Origin: Spirochaetia bacterium
GTDB taxonomy: Bacteria; Spirochaetota; Spirochaetia; SZUA-6; Bin103
Direction: 5' to 3'
Length of the DNA stretch: 64,000 nucleotides
Assembly: GCA_965203905.1 (NCBI GenBank)
Contig: CBDBDQ010000005.1
Coordinates: 5,088,001 to 5,152,000, forward strand
A model generated the notes under the pieces. It saw nothing but the letters and a program-made list of their open reading frames with translations, was not told the origin of the DNA and ran no database searches. The position numbers and the translations under genes were made by a program. Below are positions 765 through 58,511 of the stretch, in pieces (within the stretch, counting starts at the first letter, position 1; the number at the start of each line of letters is the position of its first letter).

Positions 765-978
765 CGCCCCGGGTGTGGCCTTCCGCATCCTCCTACGGCG
801 TCGGCACCCCAAAGTAATTCCTTTCGCGGCTCGATACCCGGCCCGCACGTACCCCCTGTCAACGCTTCACCCCCGCCCTCGCGGGCGACGGCGCATGACT
901 CGGGGCCGCCGTGGGTCGCTAGCCCTTCGACGTATGACTCTTCCATTCACAACACCTTGCCGGTTTGTGCCGGCGCAC
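765..978 (-). mobile_element. 5' remnant (~214 nt, domain I) of the group II intron found intact at 12529-14546
   Basis: Near-identical to 14334-14546; begins GTGCGCCGG after exon ...GACCTCCT; includes EBS1 AGGAGG (789-794). Confidence 0.9.
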
Positions 979-989
979 AGGAGGTCAAG

Positions 990-1025
990 ATGATACTCAA
1001 AGAACCGCACGCGCGCGCGGCGTGA
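990..1025 (+). CDS. Putative leader peptide MILKEPHARAA
   Basis: AGGAGG, 5 nt, ATG; stop lies in the 5' arm of a GC hairpin; homologous uORFs before other SBP paralogs. Confidence 0.55.
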   Translation: MILKEPHARAA

Positions 1026-1168
1026 GCCGGGGTGAACCCGTTGAGTCACACGCCGCGCGCGTCCGAGAACTTGACTCAGACTGGCCGCCCGCGTTGCGGG
1101 CCCGAGAGTAGCCAGGGAGCGGCAAGTCGCTCCGCAATGCTCTCAAAATCCAAGCAAGGATACTAACG

Positions 1169-11994: not shown

Positions 11995-12430
11995 GCCATG
12001 ACGACGCGCCAGGATGGCGTCAGCGCAGTGACCGGTTGGCGCTCACGTTTGGTGAGCTCCGAGTGGTCCGAGTGGTTGACAGGGTGCTCGCGTCCATAGC
12101 AAGCTTGCCTCGCTTGGGGTTTCGACGGATCGATGATGACGCGCCATGACGACAGCCAGCGCAGTGACCGCTTCGCTGTGACGCGACCGGTGCATCCCCC
12201 CCCCCCCCACTTTTTCGAACCGAGAAACAACTAACCGCTCCGGCTGATCGGCCCGTACGCGACCCCGCGCACGCCGTCGCCTTCAGCACCGGGGTAGCGG
12301 CCGGCTACGACCGCAACGGTCCTGGATCCCCGCCCCCCAACTCACCGTCACAGAACCGACCGCCGACGTCGCCGGTCAACCACATTCGTTGCTCGGCCGA
12401 CCACCGCCCCGCGTGGCGTTGTGACGCAGG
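11995..12430 (+). promoter_or_regulatory. Distal part of the upstream module of SBP locus B (motifs 12021-12037 and 12157-12173, TTGACA 12076-12081, C13 12196-12208)
   Basis: Homologous to 265-745. Confidence 0.75.
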
Positions 12431-12528
12431 TCCCAACGTCCGCCGAGCGGTGGGCGTTTGCATGATGGGGCGCGCACGCGGATCCCATCTTACGTCAGCC
12501 ATCTGGCAGGGCACCCTGTGCCCCAAGA

Positions 12529-14546
12529 GTCGGAGTAGGAATGACCATCGCTGATCACCCCCTCCACAGATCCCGGCGAGCGGAACTACCGCACCGGGCT
12601 CCTGCCTCAGGTATGACGCCAAGGCGGTACAAGGGATAGGGATGGCACACGCGGGGCGGTGGCAACCAGTGGCCGATCAGACGGCTCAGCCGCTCCCAGG
12701 TAAGCCGGGGCTTCTGACTGCGCCGCCGCATCGACCGATACCAGAGCCGACCTACCCGCAGGCGGAACAGGCGCAGTGCGCGGGAGTTCGTGGGCACCCC
12801 GTAGTACCGCAGGTGCCCACCCACAACCGAGCGCAGCCAGCTTCCCACCTCCGGGACCGGATCGTGCAGGCGCCGCCGGAGCTCGGTCTTCACCTGCCCC
12901 AGCTTGGCCTGCAACCGCTCCCGCATCGTCTGCCTGAGCACCGTAAACCGTCCGTCACTCCACTTCGTCCCGCAGATGTGCGTGAACCCGAGGAAGTCGA
13001 AGGTCTCCGGCTTCCCCTGACCTCGACGCCTGCGGTTCTCGGCCGCGAACGGCCCGAACTCGATCAAGCGCGTCTTGTCAGGATCCAGCTCCAAGGCGAA
13101 CTTGCTGAACCTCTCGGTCAGCTCCGCCCGGAACCGCTCGGCATCCGAGCGGTTCCGGAATCCGCCGACGATGTCATCCGCGTAGCGCACGACGATCACC
13201 TCGCCACGCGCCTGCGTCTGCCGCCAGCGCCGGACCCACAGGTCGAACACGTAGTGCAGGTAGATGTTGGCAAGAAGCGGCGAAGCGCTGCCTCCCTGCG
13301 GCGTCCCCTGCTCGCTGCGTGTCCGCGTCCCGTCTTCCAGCACGCCGGCGTTCAGCCATTTCTGGATGAGCCGCACGACGCGCCGATCCCCGATCCGATG
13401 CTCGGCGAACTTCACCAGCCAGCCGTGGTCGATGGCGTCAAAGAACCCACGGATGTCCACGTCGAGCACCCAGTTCACCTTCCGTGTCAGCAGGCCCACA
13501 TAGAGCGCGTCCAACGCATTGTGCTGGCTGCGCCCCGGCCGGAACCCGTAACTGAACCCGAGAAAGTCGGTCTCGTAGATGGTGTTCAGCACCTCGACTG
13601 TCGCACGCTGGACGATCTTGTCTTCCAGCGCCGTCACGCCGAGCGGTCGTTGCCGCCCGTCGCTCTTGGGGATGAACACCCTCCGCACCGGCTTCGCCCG
13701 GTACGCTCCTCGCTGCAGCCGTCCACAGAGGTCCAGGAGGTTGCCCTCCAGGTCCCTGCCGTACTGCCGCCACGTCACCCGGTCCACCCCCGGCGCGGCT
13801 TCCCGCCTGAGGCTGAAGTACGCCTCCCGGAGCATCGCAGGGTTGTCGACGTGGTGCATGAGCGCGGTGAACCGCAGCGTCCTATCCCGTCGCGCTGCTT
13901 GACGTATCCGCTCCAGCGCACTGAGCGCGCCCTCCCGGCGCAGTGTCCGGGGCGCGTTTTGCTGGCGCAGATTCCCTTTGGCCAGGCCCCTTTCCTCCAC
14001 CCGCTCCGCGGCCCGGTTGCTGCCGGCCGGCGTGACCGTAGGTTCTCCCTTGGCTGTATCCGGCGTTTCCGCCTGCGTGCCCGTGTAGGGTTCACCATAG
14101 CCGCGCCACCTGCGGCAGCCCCCGTCCTTGTTCGCGGGTTTCCCAGGTACTATGGGCCTGTCCGACTTCCCAGCTCCGTTCATCGTCGGCGTACGTCCTT
14201 GGACTTCCCGACACGGCCTGCGGCGCCATCCGCCACAGGCGAAGCTGGGATCTCCCGGCTCCCGCGCAAGGTGTTTCCGTACGTGCCCGGGGTCTGTGAC
14301 CGCGCAGGGTCCCGTGGCGCCTCGCGATATCGGCGCCCCGAGTGTGGCCTTCCGCATCCTCCTACGGCGTCGGCACCCCAAAGTAATTCCTTTCGCGGCT
14401 CGATACCCGGCCCGCACGTACCCCTGTCAACGCTTCACCCCCGCTCTTGCGAGCGACGGCGCATGACTCAGGGCCGCCGTGGGTCGCTAGCCCTTCGACG
14501 TATGACTCTTCCATTCACAACACCTTGCCGGTTTTTACCGGCGCAC
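12529..14546 (-). mobile_element. Group II intron (~2018 nt), RT-encoding, no En domain (bacterial class E-like)
   Basis: 5' GTGCGCC; domain V GAGCCCGGTGCGGTAGTTCCGCTCGCCGGGATC; domain VI ending CCTACTCCGAC; EBS1 AGGAGG (14358-14363) complementary to exon CCTCCT. Confidence 0.93.
12555..14183 (-). CDS. ltrA: Group II intron reverse transcriptase/maturase
   Basis: FSYGFRPGRSQH, GTPQGG.ASPLLANIYLH, RYADD, FDFLGFTH, C-terminal HPYP; start codon inferred. Confidence 0.92.
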   Translation of the reverse strand: MNGAGKSDRPIVPGKPANKDGGCRRWRGYGEPYTGTQAETPDTAKGEPTVTPAGSNRAAERVEERGLAKGNLRQQNAPRTLRREGALSALERIRQAARRDRTLRFTALMHHVDNPAMLREAYFSLRREAAPGVDRVTWRQYGRDLEGNLLDLCGRLQRGAYRAKPVRRVFIPKSDGRQRPLGVTALEDKIVQRATVEVLNTIYETDFLGFSYGFRPGRSQHNALDALYVGLLTRKVNWVLDVDIRGFFDAIDHGWLVKFAEHRIGDRRVVRLIQKWLNAGVLEDGTRTRSEQGTPQGGSASPLLANIYLHYVFDLWVRRWRQTQARGEVIVVRYADDIVGGFRNRSDAERFRAELTERFSKFALELDPDKTRLIEFGPFAAENRRRRGQGKPETFDFLGFTHICGTKWSDGRFTVLRQTMRERLQAKLGQVKTELRRRLHDPVPEVGSWLRSVVGGHLRYYGVPTNSRALRLFRLRVGRLWYRSMRRRSQKPRLTWERLSRLIGHWLPPPRVCHPYPLYRLGVIPEAGARCGSSARRDLWRG

Positions 14547-14558
14547 AGGAGGTGCGAA

Positions 14559-14594
14559 ATGATACTCAAAGAACCGCAACCCCGCGCGGCGTGA
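14559..14594 (+). CDS. Putative leader peptide MILKEPQPRAA
   Basis: AGGAGG (14547-14552), 6 nt, ATG; same length and stop position as 990-1025. Confidence 0.55.
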   Translation: MILKEPQPRAA

Positions 14595-14753
14595 GCCCGG
14601 CTAAACCCGGTGAGTCACACGCCGCGCGCTTCACAATTCGACTCAGACTGGCCGTCCGCGTTGGCGGGCGCGCCCGCGTTGCGGGCGTCAGAGTAGCCAG
14701 GGAGCGGCAAGTCGCTCCGCAATACTCTCGAGAATCAAGATCCGGAGTTACGC

Positions 14754-16544
14754 ATGAACTTTGCAAAAATTAGAATGACCTTCGCGTTTGCGTTGGTCCT
14801 CGTAATGACCGCAACCGGCCTCTGGGCCGCTGGCGCAGAAGAGGAGCCGGCAGCCGCTGCCGACAAGAAGTATGTGACCGACCCCTCCACCGGCAAGGTG
14901 GTGGTGGCGCCAGAGTATGGCGGGACAATAACCTTCGCCCGAAAAGACGAGCCGGCGGGTCCTGACACCGTGATCAGTGGTATGTGGGCGCAAGCCTACG
15001 TCGCTGGCGTTAATGAGAAGCTCGCCTGGCCGGACTGGGCAACGCCTAGGGACGAATTTGACTTCGTGTATCACAACGTTCCAACTAACACGATAGGGAG
15101 TCTGGCGGAAAGCTGGTCGCAGCCCGACCCACTGACGTATATCGTCAAAGTCCGCCAGGGCGTTTACTGGCATGATAAGCCACCGATGAACGGTCGGGAG
15201 CTGATTGCCGACGATATCGTATATAACTATCACCGTATTACGGGTACGGGCAGCGGTTTCACCGAACGTAGCGAATGGGCCCAGGCACTCAAATCTGTGC
15301 CACTCGAATCGGTAACGGCCACCGACAAATGGACGGTTGTTTTTAAGCTGAAGTCGCTACACCTCGATGCGCTGGCTGCTATCCTCGACGGCACGATCGC
15401 TTGGATATATCCCCCCGAGGTAATCAAGGAACACGGGGACGTTACGGATTGGAGGAACCTGGTCGGCACCGGACCCATGATGCTGACTGACTTGGTCGAA
15501 GGCGTCTCTATTACCTGGGACAAGAATCCTGACTACTGGGGATACGACGAGAAATACCCGGAGAACCGCCTGCCCTATATTGACCGGCTGAGGGCCCTGT
15601 TTATGCCAGAAGACCCAACGTATCTGGCGGCACTGCGCACGGGTAGGATTGATTACATAGGTCCGATCAGCGGCAACGCAATCATGAGTCAAGACCAGTT
15701 AGAGAGCCTCAAGAGGACCAACCCCGAACTCGTGATATATCCGTATATCGATCGGTCAGATAATGCTATTGGTATGAACACGCAGAGGCCGCCCTTTGAC
15801 GACATCAGGGTGCGCAAGGCAATGCAGATGGCACTAAACCTCGAGGAAATTAACGACGGCTTGTATGGAGGTTTTGCAGATGTGACACCTCAGGGGGTGA
15901 TAAACCGGTCTTTAACATGTTGTGTCACCCAATTTGAAGAGTGGCCCGAAGAGGTCAAGAAAGGCTTTATGTATGACCCGGCAGGGGCCGAGAAGCTTCT
16001 TGATGAGGCGGGGTATCCGCGCGGGGCCGACGGCATTAGATTTAAGACCGAGTTGATGCACCTCGTGTTTAGACCTTTGAGCTATGTAGAATTACTCGCT
16101 TCATACTGGAATAAGATTGGCATTGATGTAGAGATTGATTCACCACCAGTACCTTCCTTTGCCTCTAGAAGAGGTGAGAGGGATTTCGAAATGATCAGTG
16201 CGGAAGCGGCCATGCGGTGGAACCCATTGGTATTAGAATCTCGCTATCTACCGACCACATCATATAACAGCGCCAATGTCAACGACCCGGTTTATACAGC
16301 CATGCATGAAGCCGCCGCAGCCGCTACCACCATCGAGGAGTATAACAGTATAATTAAAGAGTTGGATCAGTATGGGATAGAGAAGTTCTGGGAGATATGG
16401 GGTGGTATGGCCCCACAGTATGTCGCGATCCAGCCGTGGCTCGTCGGTTTTAACGGTGAAACGATGTTGGGAACGGGTCAATATACCACCATCTTCAGCC
16501 GCCTCTGGGTTGATAGTGAGCTGAAGGAAGCAATGGGTCATTAG
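14754..16544 (+). CDS. ABC substrate-binding protein, family 5 (locus B)
   Basis: Paralog of 1169-2986 with the same motifs. Confidence 0.93.
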   Translation: MNFAKIRMTFAFALVLVMTATGLWAAGAEEEPAAAADKKYVTDPSTGKVVVAPEYGGTITFARKDEPAGPDTVISGMWAQAYVAGVNEKLAWPDWATPRDEFDFVYHNVPTNTIGSLAESWSQPDPLTYIVKVRQGVYWHDKPPMNGRELIADDIVYNYHRITGTGSGFTERSEWAQALKSVPLESVTATDKWTVVFKLKSLHLDALAAILDGTIAWIYPPEVIKEHGDVTDWRNLVGTGPMMLTDLVEGVSITWDKNPDYWGYDEKYPENRLPYIDRLRALFMPEDPTYLAALRTGRIDYIGPISGNAIMSQDQLESLKRTNPELVIYPYIDRSDNAIGMNTQRPPFDDIRVRKAMQMALNLEEINDGLYGGFADVTPQGVINRSLTCCVTQFEEWPEEVKKGFMYDPAGAEKLLDEAGYPRGADGIRFKTELMHLVFRPLSYVELLASYWNKIGIDVEIDSPPVPSFASRRGERDFEMISAEAAMRWNPLVLESRYLPTTSYNSANVNDPVYTAMHEAAAAATTIEEYNSIIKELDQYGIEKFWEIWGGMAPQYVAIQPWLVGFNGETMLGTGQYTTIFSRLWVDSELKEAMGH

Positions 16545-38633: not shown

Positions 38634-39200
38634 CTTTGACTCCTGATACTCGTGATATTTGAGAGTGCCGATGCCACTGGCCATCCCTCGCCCACTCTCG
38701 CGGTACACCTGGTATCGCCGGTGCCCGGGAAAACGAGGGGGGACAGCCTCGAGCTACATCTACATCCGGCACCTCCTTGAACGCGTGCGCGGACCTGAGC
38801 CCGGAGCGTCGCGGGGGGCGGTGGTCCGCGACCGTTCGGTCGGCGCTGCAGCGCGGGTGAGTGACCGGCAACGCCGGCGGCCCGCCAGGCAGGCGGTCGG
38901 AGTAGCGGTGGTCCAGGAGAAGTGGCGCGCGGGGCGCGCTGCGCGTTCAGCCTGAGCGCTTACGCTTGGGGGGGGGGTAGGCGAGGATAGGACGCGCCGG
39001 TGGCGTTGCCGCTAGGAGCGTGTCGGCTGCGCCGACGAGGTCCGAGCGGATCGGCGGAATAGACCGCCCCGGCGCCTCGGGCGTCGGTTTATGGGGCGCC
39101 AACCGGTGGCGGCGCTGAGTAGTGTCATCAGGCATCGTTCGCATCCGTTCGTTACCCGAGACACGACCCTCGGACACCTGGGCAAACACGTCAAGCGGCA
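38634..39200 (-). promoter_or_regulatory. Diverged upstream module of locus C (stem 38661-38699, SD 38772-38777 then ATGTAGATGTAG, C10 38968-38977)
   Basis: Shared blocks GGGGCGGTGGTC, CCGGCAACGCCGGCGG, TCAGCCTGAGCG, AACCGGT...GCGCTGA on the + strand. Confidence 0.6.
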
Positions 39201-52533: not shown

Positions 52534-53095
52534 ACGCAACTCCGTATGTTGGTTTTCTTGAGAGTATTGCGGACCGGCTTGCCGCTCCCTGGCTACTCTC
52601 GCGCCCGCAACGCAGGCGGCCAGACCGAGTCAGATTCGTGAAGCGCGCGGCGTGTGACTCCCGAGGCTCACGCCGCGCGCGTGCGGTTCTTTGAGAATCA
52701 TCTTGCGCTCCACAACGCCACGGGGCGGTGGTCGGCGGAGCACCGAAGGGTAATTGACCCGGCAACGCCGGCGGTCGGTTCTGCGACGGTGAGTCGGGGG
52801 GCGGGGATCCAGGACCGTTGCGGTGGTCAGTGAACGAACGCGAACTGAGCCGGTACCGCCCGGAGCCGGCGTTACGCCGCTGCTGAAGGCGAAGGCGCCC
52901 GCGGGGCGATCAGCCCAAGCGGTTAGTGATCTATAGGTAGTATCAAGAGTGCGGGGGGGGACGGGAGTGGATCGGGCGCACCGGCTGCGTGATCGCTAAC
53001 CGGTCACTGCGCTGACTGTCTTCGTGGCGCTTCACCCGCATCGGGTCGATGTTCCGGACGTTGTATCCTCCCACGCGGCCGGCATACTGTCAAAC
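52534..53095 (-). promoter_or_regulatory. Upstream module of locus D, intron-free (TTGACA 53088-53093, motif 52998-53014, C8 52953-52960, uORF 52630-52701)
   Basis: Homologous to 12160-12425 joined to 14555-14735. Confidence 0.75.
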
Positions 53096-57973: not shown

Positions 57974-58511
57974 TCATCTTCTGATTTGAGAGTGCTTCGG
58001 TGGGGAGTTGCCGGCCCGGCCCACTCTCGCGCCTGCAACGCAGGCGACCAGGCAGGGAGGGCAACCTCAGGTGGTCACACGCGCGGCATGAGCGTCATGC
58101 ACTCGGGCCGCGCGCGTGGTGCCATTCATTGAGTATCAGCTTGCACCTCCCTGTTGCGCGGATTCCGGGACTCGACGCCGAGAACGCGGCCGCGAGGCAC
58201 GCGCAGGGTGGCGGCTGTCCCGGTACTCGACGGAGTGATCTGGTATTGGACGGAGTGCTGCCGTAAGCGCAGGGCGGGCGTAATCGGTGGTGCGGTGCAC
58301 TCTGGCCCGGTTGGCCGGCGCGGTTAGTTACTTCTCGGATGAATCGAGAGTTAGATGTTATTCGCGTCCCGGGGGAGGGGGGGGGATGGATCGGGCGCAC
58401 CGGCTGCGTGATCGGTAACCGGTCACTGCGCTGACTGTCTTCGTGGCGTTTCACCCGCATCGGTTGATGCTCCGGACGTTGTATCCTCCCACGCGGCCGG
58501 CATACTGTCAA
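57974..58511 (-). promoter_or_regulatory. Upstream module of locus E (TTGACA 58506-58511, motif 58417-58433, C9TC5 58371-58385, uORF 58095-58139)
   Basis: 58388-58513 nearly identical to 52969-53095. Confidence 0.72.

What the first reader, a model, noticed from the sequence alone, without database searches (positions are those of the whole stretch)
12529..14552. Group II intron whose EBS1 is the Shine-Dalgarno consensus, inserted antisense exactly 5' of AGGAGG
Seen: the domain I loop GCCGT-AGGAGG-ATGCGGAAGGC (14358-14363; also 789-794) is complementary to the 5' exon end CCTCCT, which is the reverse strand of the leader-ORF SD. The same junction occurs twice: intact at 14546/14547 and as a 214-nt remnant at 978/979. 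Loci C (GCACCTCCT, 38769-38777) and E (GCACCTCC, 58143-58150) show the intron-free site. Established: EBS1-IBS1 pairing defines the target, and CACCUCCU is also the 16S anti-SD. Inference: targeting anti-SD sequence gives an abundant intergenic safe harbour that spares ORFs. An antisense intron cannot splice from the SBP mRNA, so it separates the distal TTGACA/poly-C part from the leader and could rewire or silence that operon.
Basis: partly seen in the sequence, partly recalled or inferred. Interest (0 to 1): 0.78.

Follow-up and report, generated by a model that had tools for sequence, protein, structure and literature searches.

The report
Group II intron that targets ribosome-binding sites
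This is an intact mobile group II intron whose target-recognition loop mimics a ribosome-binding site, so it lands backwards just upstream of a gene's ribosome-binding site, and its relatives in many bacterial phyla do the same, which looks like a target choice not described for these elements in the papers I could search.

Summary
Window 12529-14546 (minus strand) is a complete 2,018-nt group II intron: Rfam RF02005 domain I at 181.7 bits, domains V/VI, and a 542-aa RT/maturase with no endonuclease domain. AGGAGG (14358-14363) lies in the 9-nt terminal loop of a hairpin supported by covariation. It pairs with the 5' exon end CCTCCT, the complement of the Shine-Dalgarno (SD) sequence of a small leader ORF upstream of an SBP_bac_5 gene.

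Related copies show that this loop is EBS1. Its first base covaries with exon position -1 (A:T here; U:A, C:G and G:C in a sister genus). In 53 of 60 family members, at least 5 bp pair in a run anchored at -1.

Eleven of 11 sites in a sister genus lie antisense, directly 5' of SD plus ATG (10 with ATG at normal spacing). So do 80 of 108 unique sites from Acidobacteriota, Burkholderiales, Planctomycetota, Myxococcota and others.

In this genus, however, all 30 junctions lie in one repeated leader. About 90-150 other perfect SD-type sites and the 16S anti-SD are empty. Intron copies (96-98% identical) are younger than their flanks (71-81%).

Eight literature searches found no description of this specificity. 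Effects on the operon are untested.

The parts
12529..14546 (-). Complete group II intron, 2,018 nt (5' GTGCG ... 3' CCTACTCCGAC)
   Evidence: Sequence. RF02005 and RF00029. Genome BLAST copies end at the same bases. Empty-site joint 12528|AGGAGG in RNA-library contigs of two studies.
14358..14363 (-). EBS1 core AGGAGG. The full 7-nt EBS1 is AGGAGGA (14357-14363), in a 9-nt loop GU+N7.
   Evidence: Rfam alignment. Covariation with exon -1 and -6. Register statistics.
14347..14374 (-). EBS1 hairpin with its outer 3-bp stem (GCC GA CGCC-loop-UGCG GAA GGC)
   Evidence: 39 distinct homologues, 96.3% paired, compensatory changes in all 4 inner pairs.
14290..14509 (-). Domain I core matched by Rfam RF02005 (group-II-D1D4-6)
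   Evidence: 181.7 bits, gathering score 49.
12555..14183 (-). Intron-encoded protein, 542 aa plus stop: RT (YADD present) and maturase, no DNA-binding/endonuclease domain. The ORF runs through domain V into domain VI.
   Evidence: translation. TIGR04416 336 bits, cut-off 300. Pfam RVT_1 only. PDB group II RTs; colinear with the multicopy G020 protein.
12529..12603 (-). Domains V and VI (AGC triad, 2-nt bulge; bulged A 7 nt before the 3' end)
   Evidence: RF00029 37.1 bits, E 4e-5, below the gathering score of 40. Read from the sequence.
14547..14552 (-). IBS1 CCTCCT. On the + strand this is AGGAGG, the SD of the leader ORF.
14559..14594 (+). Leader ORF (11 codons plus stop), start of the repeated 5' leader of SBP genes
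14754..16544 (+). SBP_bac_5 solute-binding protein gene served by the leader
12300..12528 (-). 3' exon (distal part of the operon's upstream region). Begins TCTT; homologous to the empty site at G000:C5:4249839.
765..978 (-). 214-nt 5' remnant of the same intron at a paralogous leader (junction 978/979; EBS1 at 789-794)
   Evidence: RF02005 124.6 bits.
980..1120 (+). Paralogous leader carrying the remnant
   Evidence: nhmmer, E 4.6e-33.
58015..58151 (-). Empty leader (variant type with CTG in place of ATG; site reads CCTCCC)
52584..52710 (-). Empty leader (SD region GTGGAGCG)

Best explanation
The element is an intact, probably still mobile, group II intron retroelement of the Rfam RF02005 type, with a compact domain I and an RT/maturase that lacks an endonuclease domain.

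How it finds its target. Its exon-binding site 1 is a 7-nt stretch (AGGAGGA) in a 9-nt hairpin loop and has the sequence of a Shine-Dalgarno element. The intron RNP therefore pairs with the DNA strand complementary to a ribosome-binding site (CCTCCT). It reverse-splices right after it, so the intron ends up antisense to the gene, exactly at the 5' edge of the SD, leaving SD and start codon attached to the gene.

Target size. Recognition needs little more than IBS1 (6-7 nt) and the first base of the 3' exon. No EBS2-IBS2 pairing is required in the sister-genus copies.

Inferred steps. cDNA priming is inferred to use nascent strands at replication forks, as in other endonuclease-less introns.

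This genome versus relatives. In this genus the landing site is the SD of an 11-codon leader ORF in a roughly 200-nt leader repeated 33 times upstream of SBP_bac_5 genes. The intron colonised paralogous leaders independently and most copies have since decayed to 5' stumps. In related lineages from many phyla the same type of intron lands at the SD of unrelated genes.

Shown versus inferred. Shown: anatomy, EBS1-IBS1 pairing, insertion contexts, relative age of copies and flanks. Inferred: the retrohoming mechanism, priming, current activity, and any effect on the operon.
For: Anatomy.

EBS1:
- Hairpin covariation.
- Here the loop is AGGAGG with exon CCTCCT|.
- In G020 the loop is UGGAGG, with exon CCTCCA| in 5 of 7 sites (the others are CCTTCA and CCTTCG).
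- In G023 and G018 the loop is CGGAGG with exon CCTCCG|.
- In G018 the loop is GGGAGA with exons TCTCCC| and CCTCCC|.
- 53 of 60 family members have at least 5 bp anchored at -1, against 21.6% with shuffled partners.

Context:
- Sister genus: 11 of 11 sites are antisense to an SD-like sequence, and 10 of 11 have CAT 5-9 nt upstream. The opposite ORFs include IU_nuc_hydro and Hydantoinase_B starting at profile position 1. The background in G000 is 8.15% of 24,761 CCTCCN sites.
It gave 108 unique sites: 89 SD-like, 85 with CAT 7-16 nt from the junction, 80 with both.
- Of 82 SD+ATG sites, 57 face ORFs of at least 100 aa.
- 15 of 15 tested loci are RF02005 at 154-191 bits.

Mobility:
- G020 has 12 copies of 2,016 nt (11 identical) at 7 different gene starts.
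- In G000 the introns are 96-98% identical, against 79-81% for the leaders and 71-76% for the SBP genes.
- Spacers next to the junction differ between copies.

No EBS2 requirement: the 7 G020 sites share nothing at -8..-13, and the best J-loop pairing is no better than with shuffled partners.

3' exon: +1 is T in 11 of 16 full-length cases and G in 6 of 7 G020 sites.

Breadth of the SD-type EBS1: it is present in 26 of 39 distinct hairpins and in every major clade of a domain I tree built with the loop masked.
Against: - In this genus the intron is found only in the leader (30 of 30 junctions). 152 other CCTCCT|T sites with CAT upstream and the 16S anti-SD (CACCTCCT|TTT) are empty. Something beyond IBS1 therefore restricts it here, and I did not find what.
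- Only one full-length copy exists in G000. Activity today is not shown.
- RF00029 is below its gathering score.
- 28 of 108 wide-scan sites are not SD+CAT. Several sublineages have other EBS1 and target sequences.
- Enrichment at gene starts could come from selection after insertion.
- The crude gene model used to judge this calls only 69% of the genome coding.
- RNA data are contigs: no strand, no level, and no proof of splicing.
Confidence: 0.82

Rival explanations
1. The association with ribosome-binding sites is not targeting. The intron inserts wherever a 6-8-nt IBS1/IBS3 match exists, and only insertions just outside coding sequence survive. Because GGAGG-like words in intergenic DNA are mostly SDs, survivors pile up there.
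For: The target is very short and needs no EBS2. The distance from junction to CAT varies from 7 to 15 nt, so the start codon is not read at a fixed register. About 70-90% of the genome is coding, so most random hits would be lost.
Against: - Among sites with an SD-like exon end, 80 of 89 have CAT in range.
- A rough estimate for G000 puts RBS-antisense sites at 9% of CCTCC sites outside called genes. After scaling for the under-called gene set I guess about 30% (rough).
- In the flanks of the same loci, 110 of 650 same-5-mer control sites are in a CAT context.
- The recent G020 burst is 7 of 7 at gene starts, with repeated hits at 5 of them.
- EBS1 varies in 26 forms yet keeps a GGAG core in 26 of 39 distinct hairpins. 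This suggests the SD-like word itself is maintained.
Confidence: 0.3
2. In this genome the element is simply a homing-site intron specific for the repeated SBP leader. The SD-likeness of EBS1 is inherited baggage with no role in its spread here.
For: 30 of 30 junctions in the genus are in the leader. 93-152 other perfect SD-type sites and the 16S site are empty. Partial pairings are possible between the J-loop (GGAAU, GGCAA, CGAGA variants) and leader spacers.
Against: Spacers between CAT and IBS1 differ in length and sequence among occupied leaders (TTCGCA, TCGAA, CTTGA, CTTCA, CTTGG, TTTGCA). No consistent second pairing was found. The sister clade, with about 85% identical introns, uses unrelated genes.
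Confidence: 0.35
3. The copies spread with duplications of the operon, or by gene conversion between paralogous leaders, not by retrohoming.
For: Both flanks are repeated sequence. The first 120 nt of the 3' flank of copies 1 and 2 are nearly identical, and 529 nt are 89% identical.
Against: The intron is 96-98% identical against 79-81% (leader) and 71-76% (gene). Bases 3-8 nt from the 5' junction differ between copies. An empty site has the same distal flank. Two types of distal flank carry the intron. There are 11 non-paralogous sites in the sister genus.
Confidence: 0.06
4. The intron or its 5' stump has been co-opted as part of the leader's regulation (for example a stable hairpin just upstream of the SD), which would explain why 5' stumps persist.
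For: At least 7 G000 leaders keep only the first 30-300 nt of the intron next to the SD. The stump always includes the GCGCCGG...CCGGC hairpin.
Against: Retention of the 5' end is expected anyway, because deletions that reach the SD would be lost. The stumps are diverging in sequence. Many leaders work without one: 22 of 33 nhmmer hits are empty. No expression data by locus.
Confidence: 0.08

Closest known systems
Class C (IIC) group II introns that insert after intrinsic terminators
   Same: They target a functional sequence motif present at many genes rather than one long homing site. Pairing is short (EBS1 and EBS3), EBS2 is not needed, the protein lacks an endonuclease domain, domain I is compact, and there are many sites per genome. 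The PDB proteins most similar to this IEP are IIC RTs (6ar1 2.4e-40, 5hhl, 7uim). The review passage on IIC specificity was read, and the introduction of PMC12584367.
   Different: The motif here is the complement of the ribosome-binding site, not a terminator hairpin with a T run. No hairpin lies upstream of IBS1: target 5' exons are less structured than controls (-3.2 against -5.5 kcal/mol). The RNA matches RF02005. EBS1 is 6-7 nt.
IIC-attC introns (S.ma.I2 type) at integron attC sites
   Same: A motif-level target recognised with short pairing (named in the review passage read).
   Different: A different motif and a different genomic setting. No integron is involved here.
[quoted passage not shown]
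   Same: Introns associated with translation signals of protein genes (introduction of PMC12584367 read).
   Different: Those lie in the sense strand, within or beside the codon, and are spliced from the mRNA. They carry a 300-700-nt insertion near the 5' end and belong to IIB1. This intron is antisense, lies 5' of the SD, and has no such insertion (RF02005 starts at intron position 38).
RmInt1 (class D), an endonuclease-less homing intron
   Same: An RT/maturase without an endonuclease domain. Many copies and decayed fragments occur in one genome. Priming at replication forks is assumed by analogy (recalled; abstracts seen).
   Different: RmInt1 uses EBS1, EBS2 and EBS3 on a long site inside an insertion sequence. 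Here EBS2 pairing is not evident and the site is an SD complement.
Rfam RF02005 (group-II-D1D4-6)
   Same: The window's intron and 15 of 15 tested relatives match it at 154-191 bits over the whole model.
   Different: Rfam describes only the RNA fold. Its consensus shows the EBS1 loop as variable and says nothing about targets. I could not map RF02005 to a Zimmerly/Toro ORF class.

Membership tests
Group II intron (mobile, ORF-containing) | Conserved 5' GUGYG and 3' AY boundaries | tested here: met
   GTGCG at 14546 and ...GAC at 12529. The boundaries are the same in other copies, in an empty site and in joined contigs.
Group II intron (mobile, ORF-containing) | Domain I fold | tested here: met
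   RF02005 181.7 bits, model positions 1-225 of 225.
Group II intron (mobile, ORF-containing) | Domain V (AGC triad, 2-nt bulge) and domain VI with a bulged branch-point A | tested here: met
   RF00029 37.1 bits, E 4e-5, below the gathering score of 40. AGC, the bulge and the A 7 nt from the end were read. Relatives score 43-55 bits.
Group II intron (mobile, ORF-containing) | RT/maturase ORF in domain IV | tested here: met
   TIGR04416 336 bits (cut-off 300); RVT_1; YADD present.
Group II intron (mobile, ORF-containing) | EBS1-IBS1 pairing between domain I and the 5' exon end | tested here: met
   6 bp here. Covariation across lineages and 53 of 60 loci.
Group II intron (mobile, ORF-containing) | Self-splicing and retrohoming activity | not testable with these tools
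   Indirect evidence only: identical copies at 7 sites in G020 and copies younger than their flanks.
Class C (IIC) introns | Insertion downstream of a terminator or attC stem-loop | tested here: not met
   The 5' exons are complements of gene starts, with weak predicted structure.
Class C (IIC) introns | Short EBS1, no EBS2, endonuclease-less IEP | tested here: inconclusive
   Endonuclease-less. No EBS2 requirement in G020. But EBS1 is 6-7 nt, and some non-SD sublineages show 5-8-bp J-loop pairings.
Class C (IIC) introns | IIC RNA structure and class C ORF phylogeny | not tested
   No class-labelled reference set was at hand. The best PDB hits are IIC RTs by a small margin.
IIB1 start/stop-codon lineage (Avi.groEL type) | Sense-strand insertion within or next to the initiation or termination codon | tested here: not met
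   Antisense, 10-14 nt upstream of the ATG.
IIB1 start/stop-codon lineage (Avi.groEL type) | 300-700-nt insertion near the 5' end of domain I | tested here: not met
   Domain I core begins 38 nt from the 5' end, and the IEP start is at intron position 364.

The most novel reading that the evidence does not exclude
The RF02005 lineage represents a fourth kind of group II intron target choice, beside long homing sites, terminators and attC sites. Under this reading it homes to the complement of functional ribosome-binding sites. The SD-like EBS1 is kept by selection because its target is present once per gene, lies just outside coding sequence, sits in DNA with little secondary structure, and is the same in nearly all bacteria (it mirrors the 16S 3' end). 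That would explain the lineage's presence in at least six phyla. Choice among IBS1 matches may use the accessibility of translation-initiation regions as single-stranded DNA.
Probability: 0.5. Interest if true: 0.85.

Novelty: new variant of a known kind. Interest (0 to 1): 0.78.

Why it matters
Reviews list three target specificities for bacterial group II introns: homing sites, terminators and attC sites (PMC4424553, passages read). A 2025 paper names only IIC introns as specialised for an intergenic context (PMC12584367, introduction read).

A widespread lineage aimed at the complement of the ribosome-binding site would add a fourth. It would show how a retroelement can use a universal, once-per-gene signal as a landing pad without destroying the gene's SD or start codon.

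It would also:
- give a natural model for minimal-specificity (7-8 nt) retrohoming;
- account for antisense group II introns and their stumps in 5' untranslated regions, which annotation pipelines do not explain;
- raise testable questions about polarity on the invaded gene.

For this genome, it shows that a highly repeated SBP leader has been a recurrent target.

Tried and rejected
EBS2. I first took GCGAAA (about 14394-14399) as EBS2 pairing with exon TTTCGC. I rejected this because CGAAA is conserved in the Rfam consensus and other copies with the same GCGAAA have different spacers. A search for J-loop pairing with positions -7..-22 was no better than with shuffled partners overall.

Promoter scan of 12000-15200: 0 promoter-like sites on either strand. 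It says nothing about how the intron or the operon is transcribed.

Replication strand. GC skew puts the origin near 1.48 Mb and the terminus near 5.76 Mb. By my reading, 8 of 11 G000 copies lie on the leading-strand template. This is too few, and confounded with gene orientation, to use.

Accessibility. The unpaired probability of IBS1 itself does not differ between targets and controls (0.76 against 0.72, p 0.11). Only the whole 45-nt window does. This fits translation-initiation regions in general and does not show cause.

The crude gene model covers only 69% of the genome. Its 9% figure is a lower bound, and my scaling to about 30% is a guess.

Reads. All four runs laid were contigs, so there is no strand, level or splicing evidence. 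Low cover of the intron interior in RNA libraries and high cover of the leader cannot be interpreted per locus, because the depths of 33 paralogues are summed. Joints other than 12528->14559 look like paralogues or deleted copies.

Intron class (A-F, g1-g6) could not be assigned. PMC3552965 (sections and passages read) gave no usable markers.

Literature:
- Searches found no paper on SD- or RBS-complement targeting.
- Passages were read in PMC8643678, PMC4424553, PMC3552965, PMC8919778, PMC3245105, PMC4028801 and PMC4615759.
- The outline, introduction and two passages of PMC12584367 were read.
- Not held, so unseen: Simon et al. 2008 (RNA 14:1704), Toro et al. 2002 (Gene 299:245), Dai and Zimmerly 2002, Lambowitz and Zimmerly 2011. 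A prior mention there, in the Zimmerly intron database or in supplements (closed) cannot be excluded.
Full report
WHAT IS THERE

On the minus strand of the window, 14546 to 12529, lies a 2,018-nt group II intron.
- It begins GTGCG and ends CCTACTCCGAC.
- Rfam RF02005 (group II D1-D4 type 6) matches 14290-14509 at 181.7 bits, against a gathering score of 49.
- RF00029 (domains V/VI) matches 12529-12603 at 37.1 bits, E 4e-5, just under its gathering score of 40.
- The ORF from 14183 to 12558 gives a 542-aa protein with YADD. It matches TIGR04416, group II intron RT/maturase, at 336 bits (cut-off 300).
- Pfam finds only RVT_1, with no HNH or endonuclease domain even at E up to 1.
- The nearest solved structures are group II RTs, with IIC enzymes first (6ar1 2.4e-40).
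- The reading frame runs through domain V into domain VI. The same is true of the multicopy relative in genome G020.
- A 214-nt 5' stump, 96% identical, lies at 978..765.

THE OBSERVATION

The 5' exon ends GCACCTCCT, and its complement AGGAGGTGC-N3-ATG is the ribosome-binding site of an 11-codon ORF (14559-14594). That ORF heads a conserved leader upstream of an SBP_bac_5 gene (14754-16544).

The Rfam alignment puts AGGAGG in the terminal loop of a hairpin whose loop is variable in the family consensus. I collected 39 distinct versions of this hairpin from relatives. With the structure (((..((((.........))))...))), 96.3% of cells pair. All four inner pairs show compensatory changes, and none of 500 shuffles reaches the observed values. 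The rows were picked by a regular expression that fixes the flanks and the 17-nt length, which favours a clean alignment.

PROOF THAT THE LOOP IS EBS1

The intron occurs in four other genomes of the same genus at 92-97% identity, and in a sister genus at about 85%. The first loop base after GU covaries with exon position -1:

| Lineage | EBS1 loop | 5' exon end |
|---|---|---|
| This genus | AGGAGG | CCTCCT\| |
| G020 | UGGAGG | CCTCCA\| in 5 of 7 sites (others CCTTCA\| and CCTTCG\|) |
| G023, and one G018 copy | CGGAGG | CCTCCG\| |
| Two other G018 copies | GGGAGA | TCTCCC\| and CCTCCC\| |

In a wider set, 53 of 60 loci that have both loop and flank show at least 5 contiguous Watson-Crick pairs anchored at exon -1. 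Of those, 52 of 53 use the same loop register. With partners shuffled among loci the figure is 21.6%. EBS1 is therefore the 7 nt that follow GU in a 9-nt loop.

Sister genus. The introns sit at 11 unrelated sites (7 in G020, 3 in G018, 1 in G023).
- All 11 5' exons end in an SD complement.
- Ten have CAT 5-9 nt further upstream.
- On the other strand an ORF starts at that ATG. For three of six tested, Pfam matched: IU_nuc_hydro and Hydantoinase_B from profile position 1, and Alpha_L_fucos.
- In G000, only 8.15% of 24,761 CCTCCN sites have CAT 4-9 nt upstream. On that background, 10 of 11 has a binomial probability of about 1e-10. The background comes from a different genome than the sites.

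Wider scan.
- There were 116 matches, and 110 had at least 30 nt of flank.
- One was a tandem junction and one a duplicate, leaving 108 unique sites.
- Of these, 89 end in an SD-like complement, 85 have CAT 7-16 nt from the junction, and 80 have both (74%).
- A recount that included two more leader loci gave 82 SD+ATG sites. Of these, 57 face ORFs of at least 100 aa, 12 face 50-99 aa, 6 face fewer than 50 aa, and 7 run to the end of the held flank.
- Record titles name Acidobacteriota, Burkholderiales and other Pseudomonadota, Planctomycetota, Myxococcota, Nitrospiraceae, Gemmatimonadales and Candidatus Eisenbacteria.
- Fifteen of 15 loci tested are RF02005 at 154-191 bits.
- The 28 sites that are not SD+CAT include sublineages with other EBS1 and target pairs: loop UCAGCAU with exon ...GCTGA|, UGAGCGA with ...GCTCA|, and GGACACA with ...TGTCC|.
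- Three wide-scan sites are the same as sites already counted in the genus or its sister (L079, L154, L159).

TARGET SIZE

The 12 full-length G020 copies are 2,016 nt. Eleven are identical and one differs at one base. They occupy 7 different gene starts that share nothing at -8..-13, so EBS2-IBS2 pairing is not needed.

Across 38 unique sites, the best pairing between the 13-nt joining segment and exon -7..-22 is no better than with shuffled partners. A few non-SD sublineages do show 5-8 bp there.

The 3' exon begins with T in 11 of 16 full-length wide-scan cases and with G in 6 of 7 G020 sites.

Five of the 7 G020 sites, and one Caballeronia locus, carry exact head-to-tail arrays of 2-3 introns. 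Two explanations fit:
- Re-invasion of an occupied site. IBS1 stays intact there, and the resident intron's first G supplies position +1.
- Template switching by the RT.
I cannot tell which applies, and assembly error in repeats is also possible.

THIS GENOME AND GENUS

The leader is repeated: nhmmer finds 33 copies in G000, plus one degenerate copy. Eleven carry the intron or a piece of it at the same position and orientation:
- one full copy;
- one with a 443-nt deletion in the ORF;
- stumps of about 30-300 nt;
- two loci with RT fragments.

All 19 further 5' junctions in four congeners are in the same leader.

By contrast, G000 holds 5,314 CCTCCT sites. Of these, 888 are followed by T, 152 of those have CAT 4-9 nt upstream, and 93 of them face an ORF of at least 100 aa. 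Apart from 4 leader-type sites, none of them is a leader, and BLAST and the RF02005 search found this intron nowhere outside leaders. The single 16S gene ends CACCTCCT|TTT, a perfect IBS1 plus +1 T, and is empty.

So in this genus the intron behaves as a leader-specific element. I did not find the extra determinant.

INDEPENDENT INSERTION OR CO-DUPLICATION

Several lines point to insertion after the paralogues diverged:
- Between copies 1, 2 and 3, the first 214 nt of the intron are 96.3-97.7% identical. The adjacent 210-nt leaders are 78.6-81.4% identical and the next 1,800 nt (SBP gene) 70.7-75.5%.
- Spacer bases 3-8 nt from the junction differ between copies.
- An empty leader (C5:4249839) has the same distal flank as copies 1 and 2.
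- Contigs from RNA libraries of two studies join 12528 directly to AGGAGGTGAAG-ATGATAC (depth 101 and 203, shorter side 27 nt). This is an intron-less leader with exactly the predicted boundary, most likely from a paralogue or another strain.

The near-identity of the first 120 nt of the 3' flank of copies 1 and 2 leaves some room for conversion.

TARGETING OR SELECTION

The junction-to-CAT distance varies from 7 to 15 nt, with modes at 10, 12 and 13. The start codon is therefore not read at a fixed register, and the link to start codons runs through the SD being a real one.

Observations that lean towards real preference for ribosome-binding sites:
- In the flanks of the same loci, 110 of 650 control sites sharing the exon's last 5 nt are in a CAT context. 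Among SD-like insertion sites the figure is 80 of 89.
- A crude gene model for G000 puts RBS-antisense sites at 9% of CCTCC sites outside called genes. The model calls only 69% of the genome coding, so the true share is higher, perhaps around 30% by my scaling.
- The 45 nt of 5' exon at targets fold more weakly as single-stranded DNA than controls (-3.2 against -5.5 kcal/mol, Mann-Whitney p 5.6e-12). The IBS1 bases themselves are not more exposed.
- The SD-like word is kept while EBS1 drifts. There are 26 different 7-mers among 39 distinct hairpins, and 26 of the 39 contain GGAG.
- In a domain I tree built with the loop masked (67 rows; 52 SD-type, 15 other), the label needs 6 changes and SD-type rows occur in every major clade. 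The tree is rooted at the midpoint only, so the ancestral state is not shown.

These do not exclude selection after insertion.

COMPARISON WITH WHAT IS KNOWN

A 2015 review lists three target specificities: homing sites, after terminators, and attC (PMC4424553, passage read). A 2025 paper names IIC introns as the lineage specialised for an intergenic context. It also describes a IIB1 lineage at start or stop codons that lies in the sense strand and carries a large 5' insertion (PMC12584367, introduction read).

The present lineage works like IIC in targeting a motif with short pairing and an endonuclease-less protein. It fails the defining IIC feature, a stem-loop before IBS1. It also fails both features of the IIB1 start/stop lineage.

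Eight full-text searches found nothing on targeting of the SD complement. Several key older papers and all supplements were not available, so priority is not settled.

WHAT IS NOT SHOWN

- That the window's copy is active today.
- How an intron antisense to its neighbour gets transcribed. No promoter-like site was found.
- Whether the SBP operon is silenced, read through or rewired.
- What restricts the intron to leaders in this genus.
- The intron's ORF class.

VERDICT

The finding extends well beyond the window. RF02005-type introns from many phyla sit antisense at ribosome-binding sites, with EBS1 mimicking the SD.

Noticed in passing
window 14547-14753 (+), 980-1120 (+), 52584-52710 (-), 58015-58151 (-); 33 copies in G000: A repeated leader of about 200 nt lies upstream of SBP_bac_5 genes. 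It has an SD, an 11-codon ORF (MILKEP...), a long hairpin whose 5' arm is the end of that ORF, and two further conserved hairpins before the SBP gene's own SD. There is no Rfam match at gathering score. Contigs from RNA libraries cover it at summed depths of 770-2,540, against 0-205 for intron-only bins. It looks like a translation-coupled regulatory leader. Little covariation is seen because the copies are so similar.
   Followed up: partly
G000:C5:4845070-4846360 (outside the window): A second RF02005-type intron (131 bits) sits in the sense strand inside another leader, right after GACTCAGA. Its EBS1-position loop reads UCUGAGA, complementary to that exon end. Its 5' end reads TCGCG rather than GTGCG, so it may be dead. 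This is a different target within the same leader family.
   Followed up: partly
G000:C5:1918683-1918938 (outside the window): A third RF02005-type intron (57.9 bits) has loop GUAAUUG and 5' exon end CAGTTAT (7 pairs including 2 G-U). It is not an SD-type target.
   Followed up: no
L037-L041 (G020), L130: Exact head-to-tail arrays of 2-3 identical introns lie at one site, with the 3' end of one copy abutting the GTGCG of the next. This could be re-invasion of an occupied site, RT template switching or an assembly artefact.
   Followed up: partly
same-genus genomes G001, G004, G005, G006, G007: There is very large paralogy of SBP_bac_5 genes.
   Followed up: no
window 12555-12603 (-): The RT/maturase reading frame continues through domain V and stops inside domain VI. 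The same C-terminal residues are kept in the multicopy G020 intron.
   Followed up: partly
window 12076-12081 and 12195-12210 (+): TTGACA and a run of 14 C lie about 320-450 nt upstream of the intron's 3' junction. Similar C runs stand upstream of loci C and E. Function not examined.
   Followed up: no
G000:C5 leaders at 3480265, 6516693, 6673814, 7676816, 7687557: Only the first 30-50 or so nt of the intron (GTGCGCCGG...CCGGC hairpin) survive next to the SD. This is expected if deletions cannot cross the SD, but it could also mean the stump is tolerated or useful in the mRNA leader.
   Followed up: partly
window 38769-38800 (-): Locus C has AGGAGGTGCCGG followed by ATG TAG ATG TAG (start-stop pairs) instead of the leader ORF, upstream of another SBP-like gene. 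nhmmer does not detect it as a leader.
   Followed up: no
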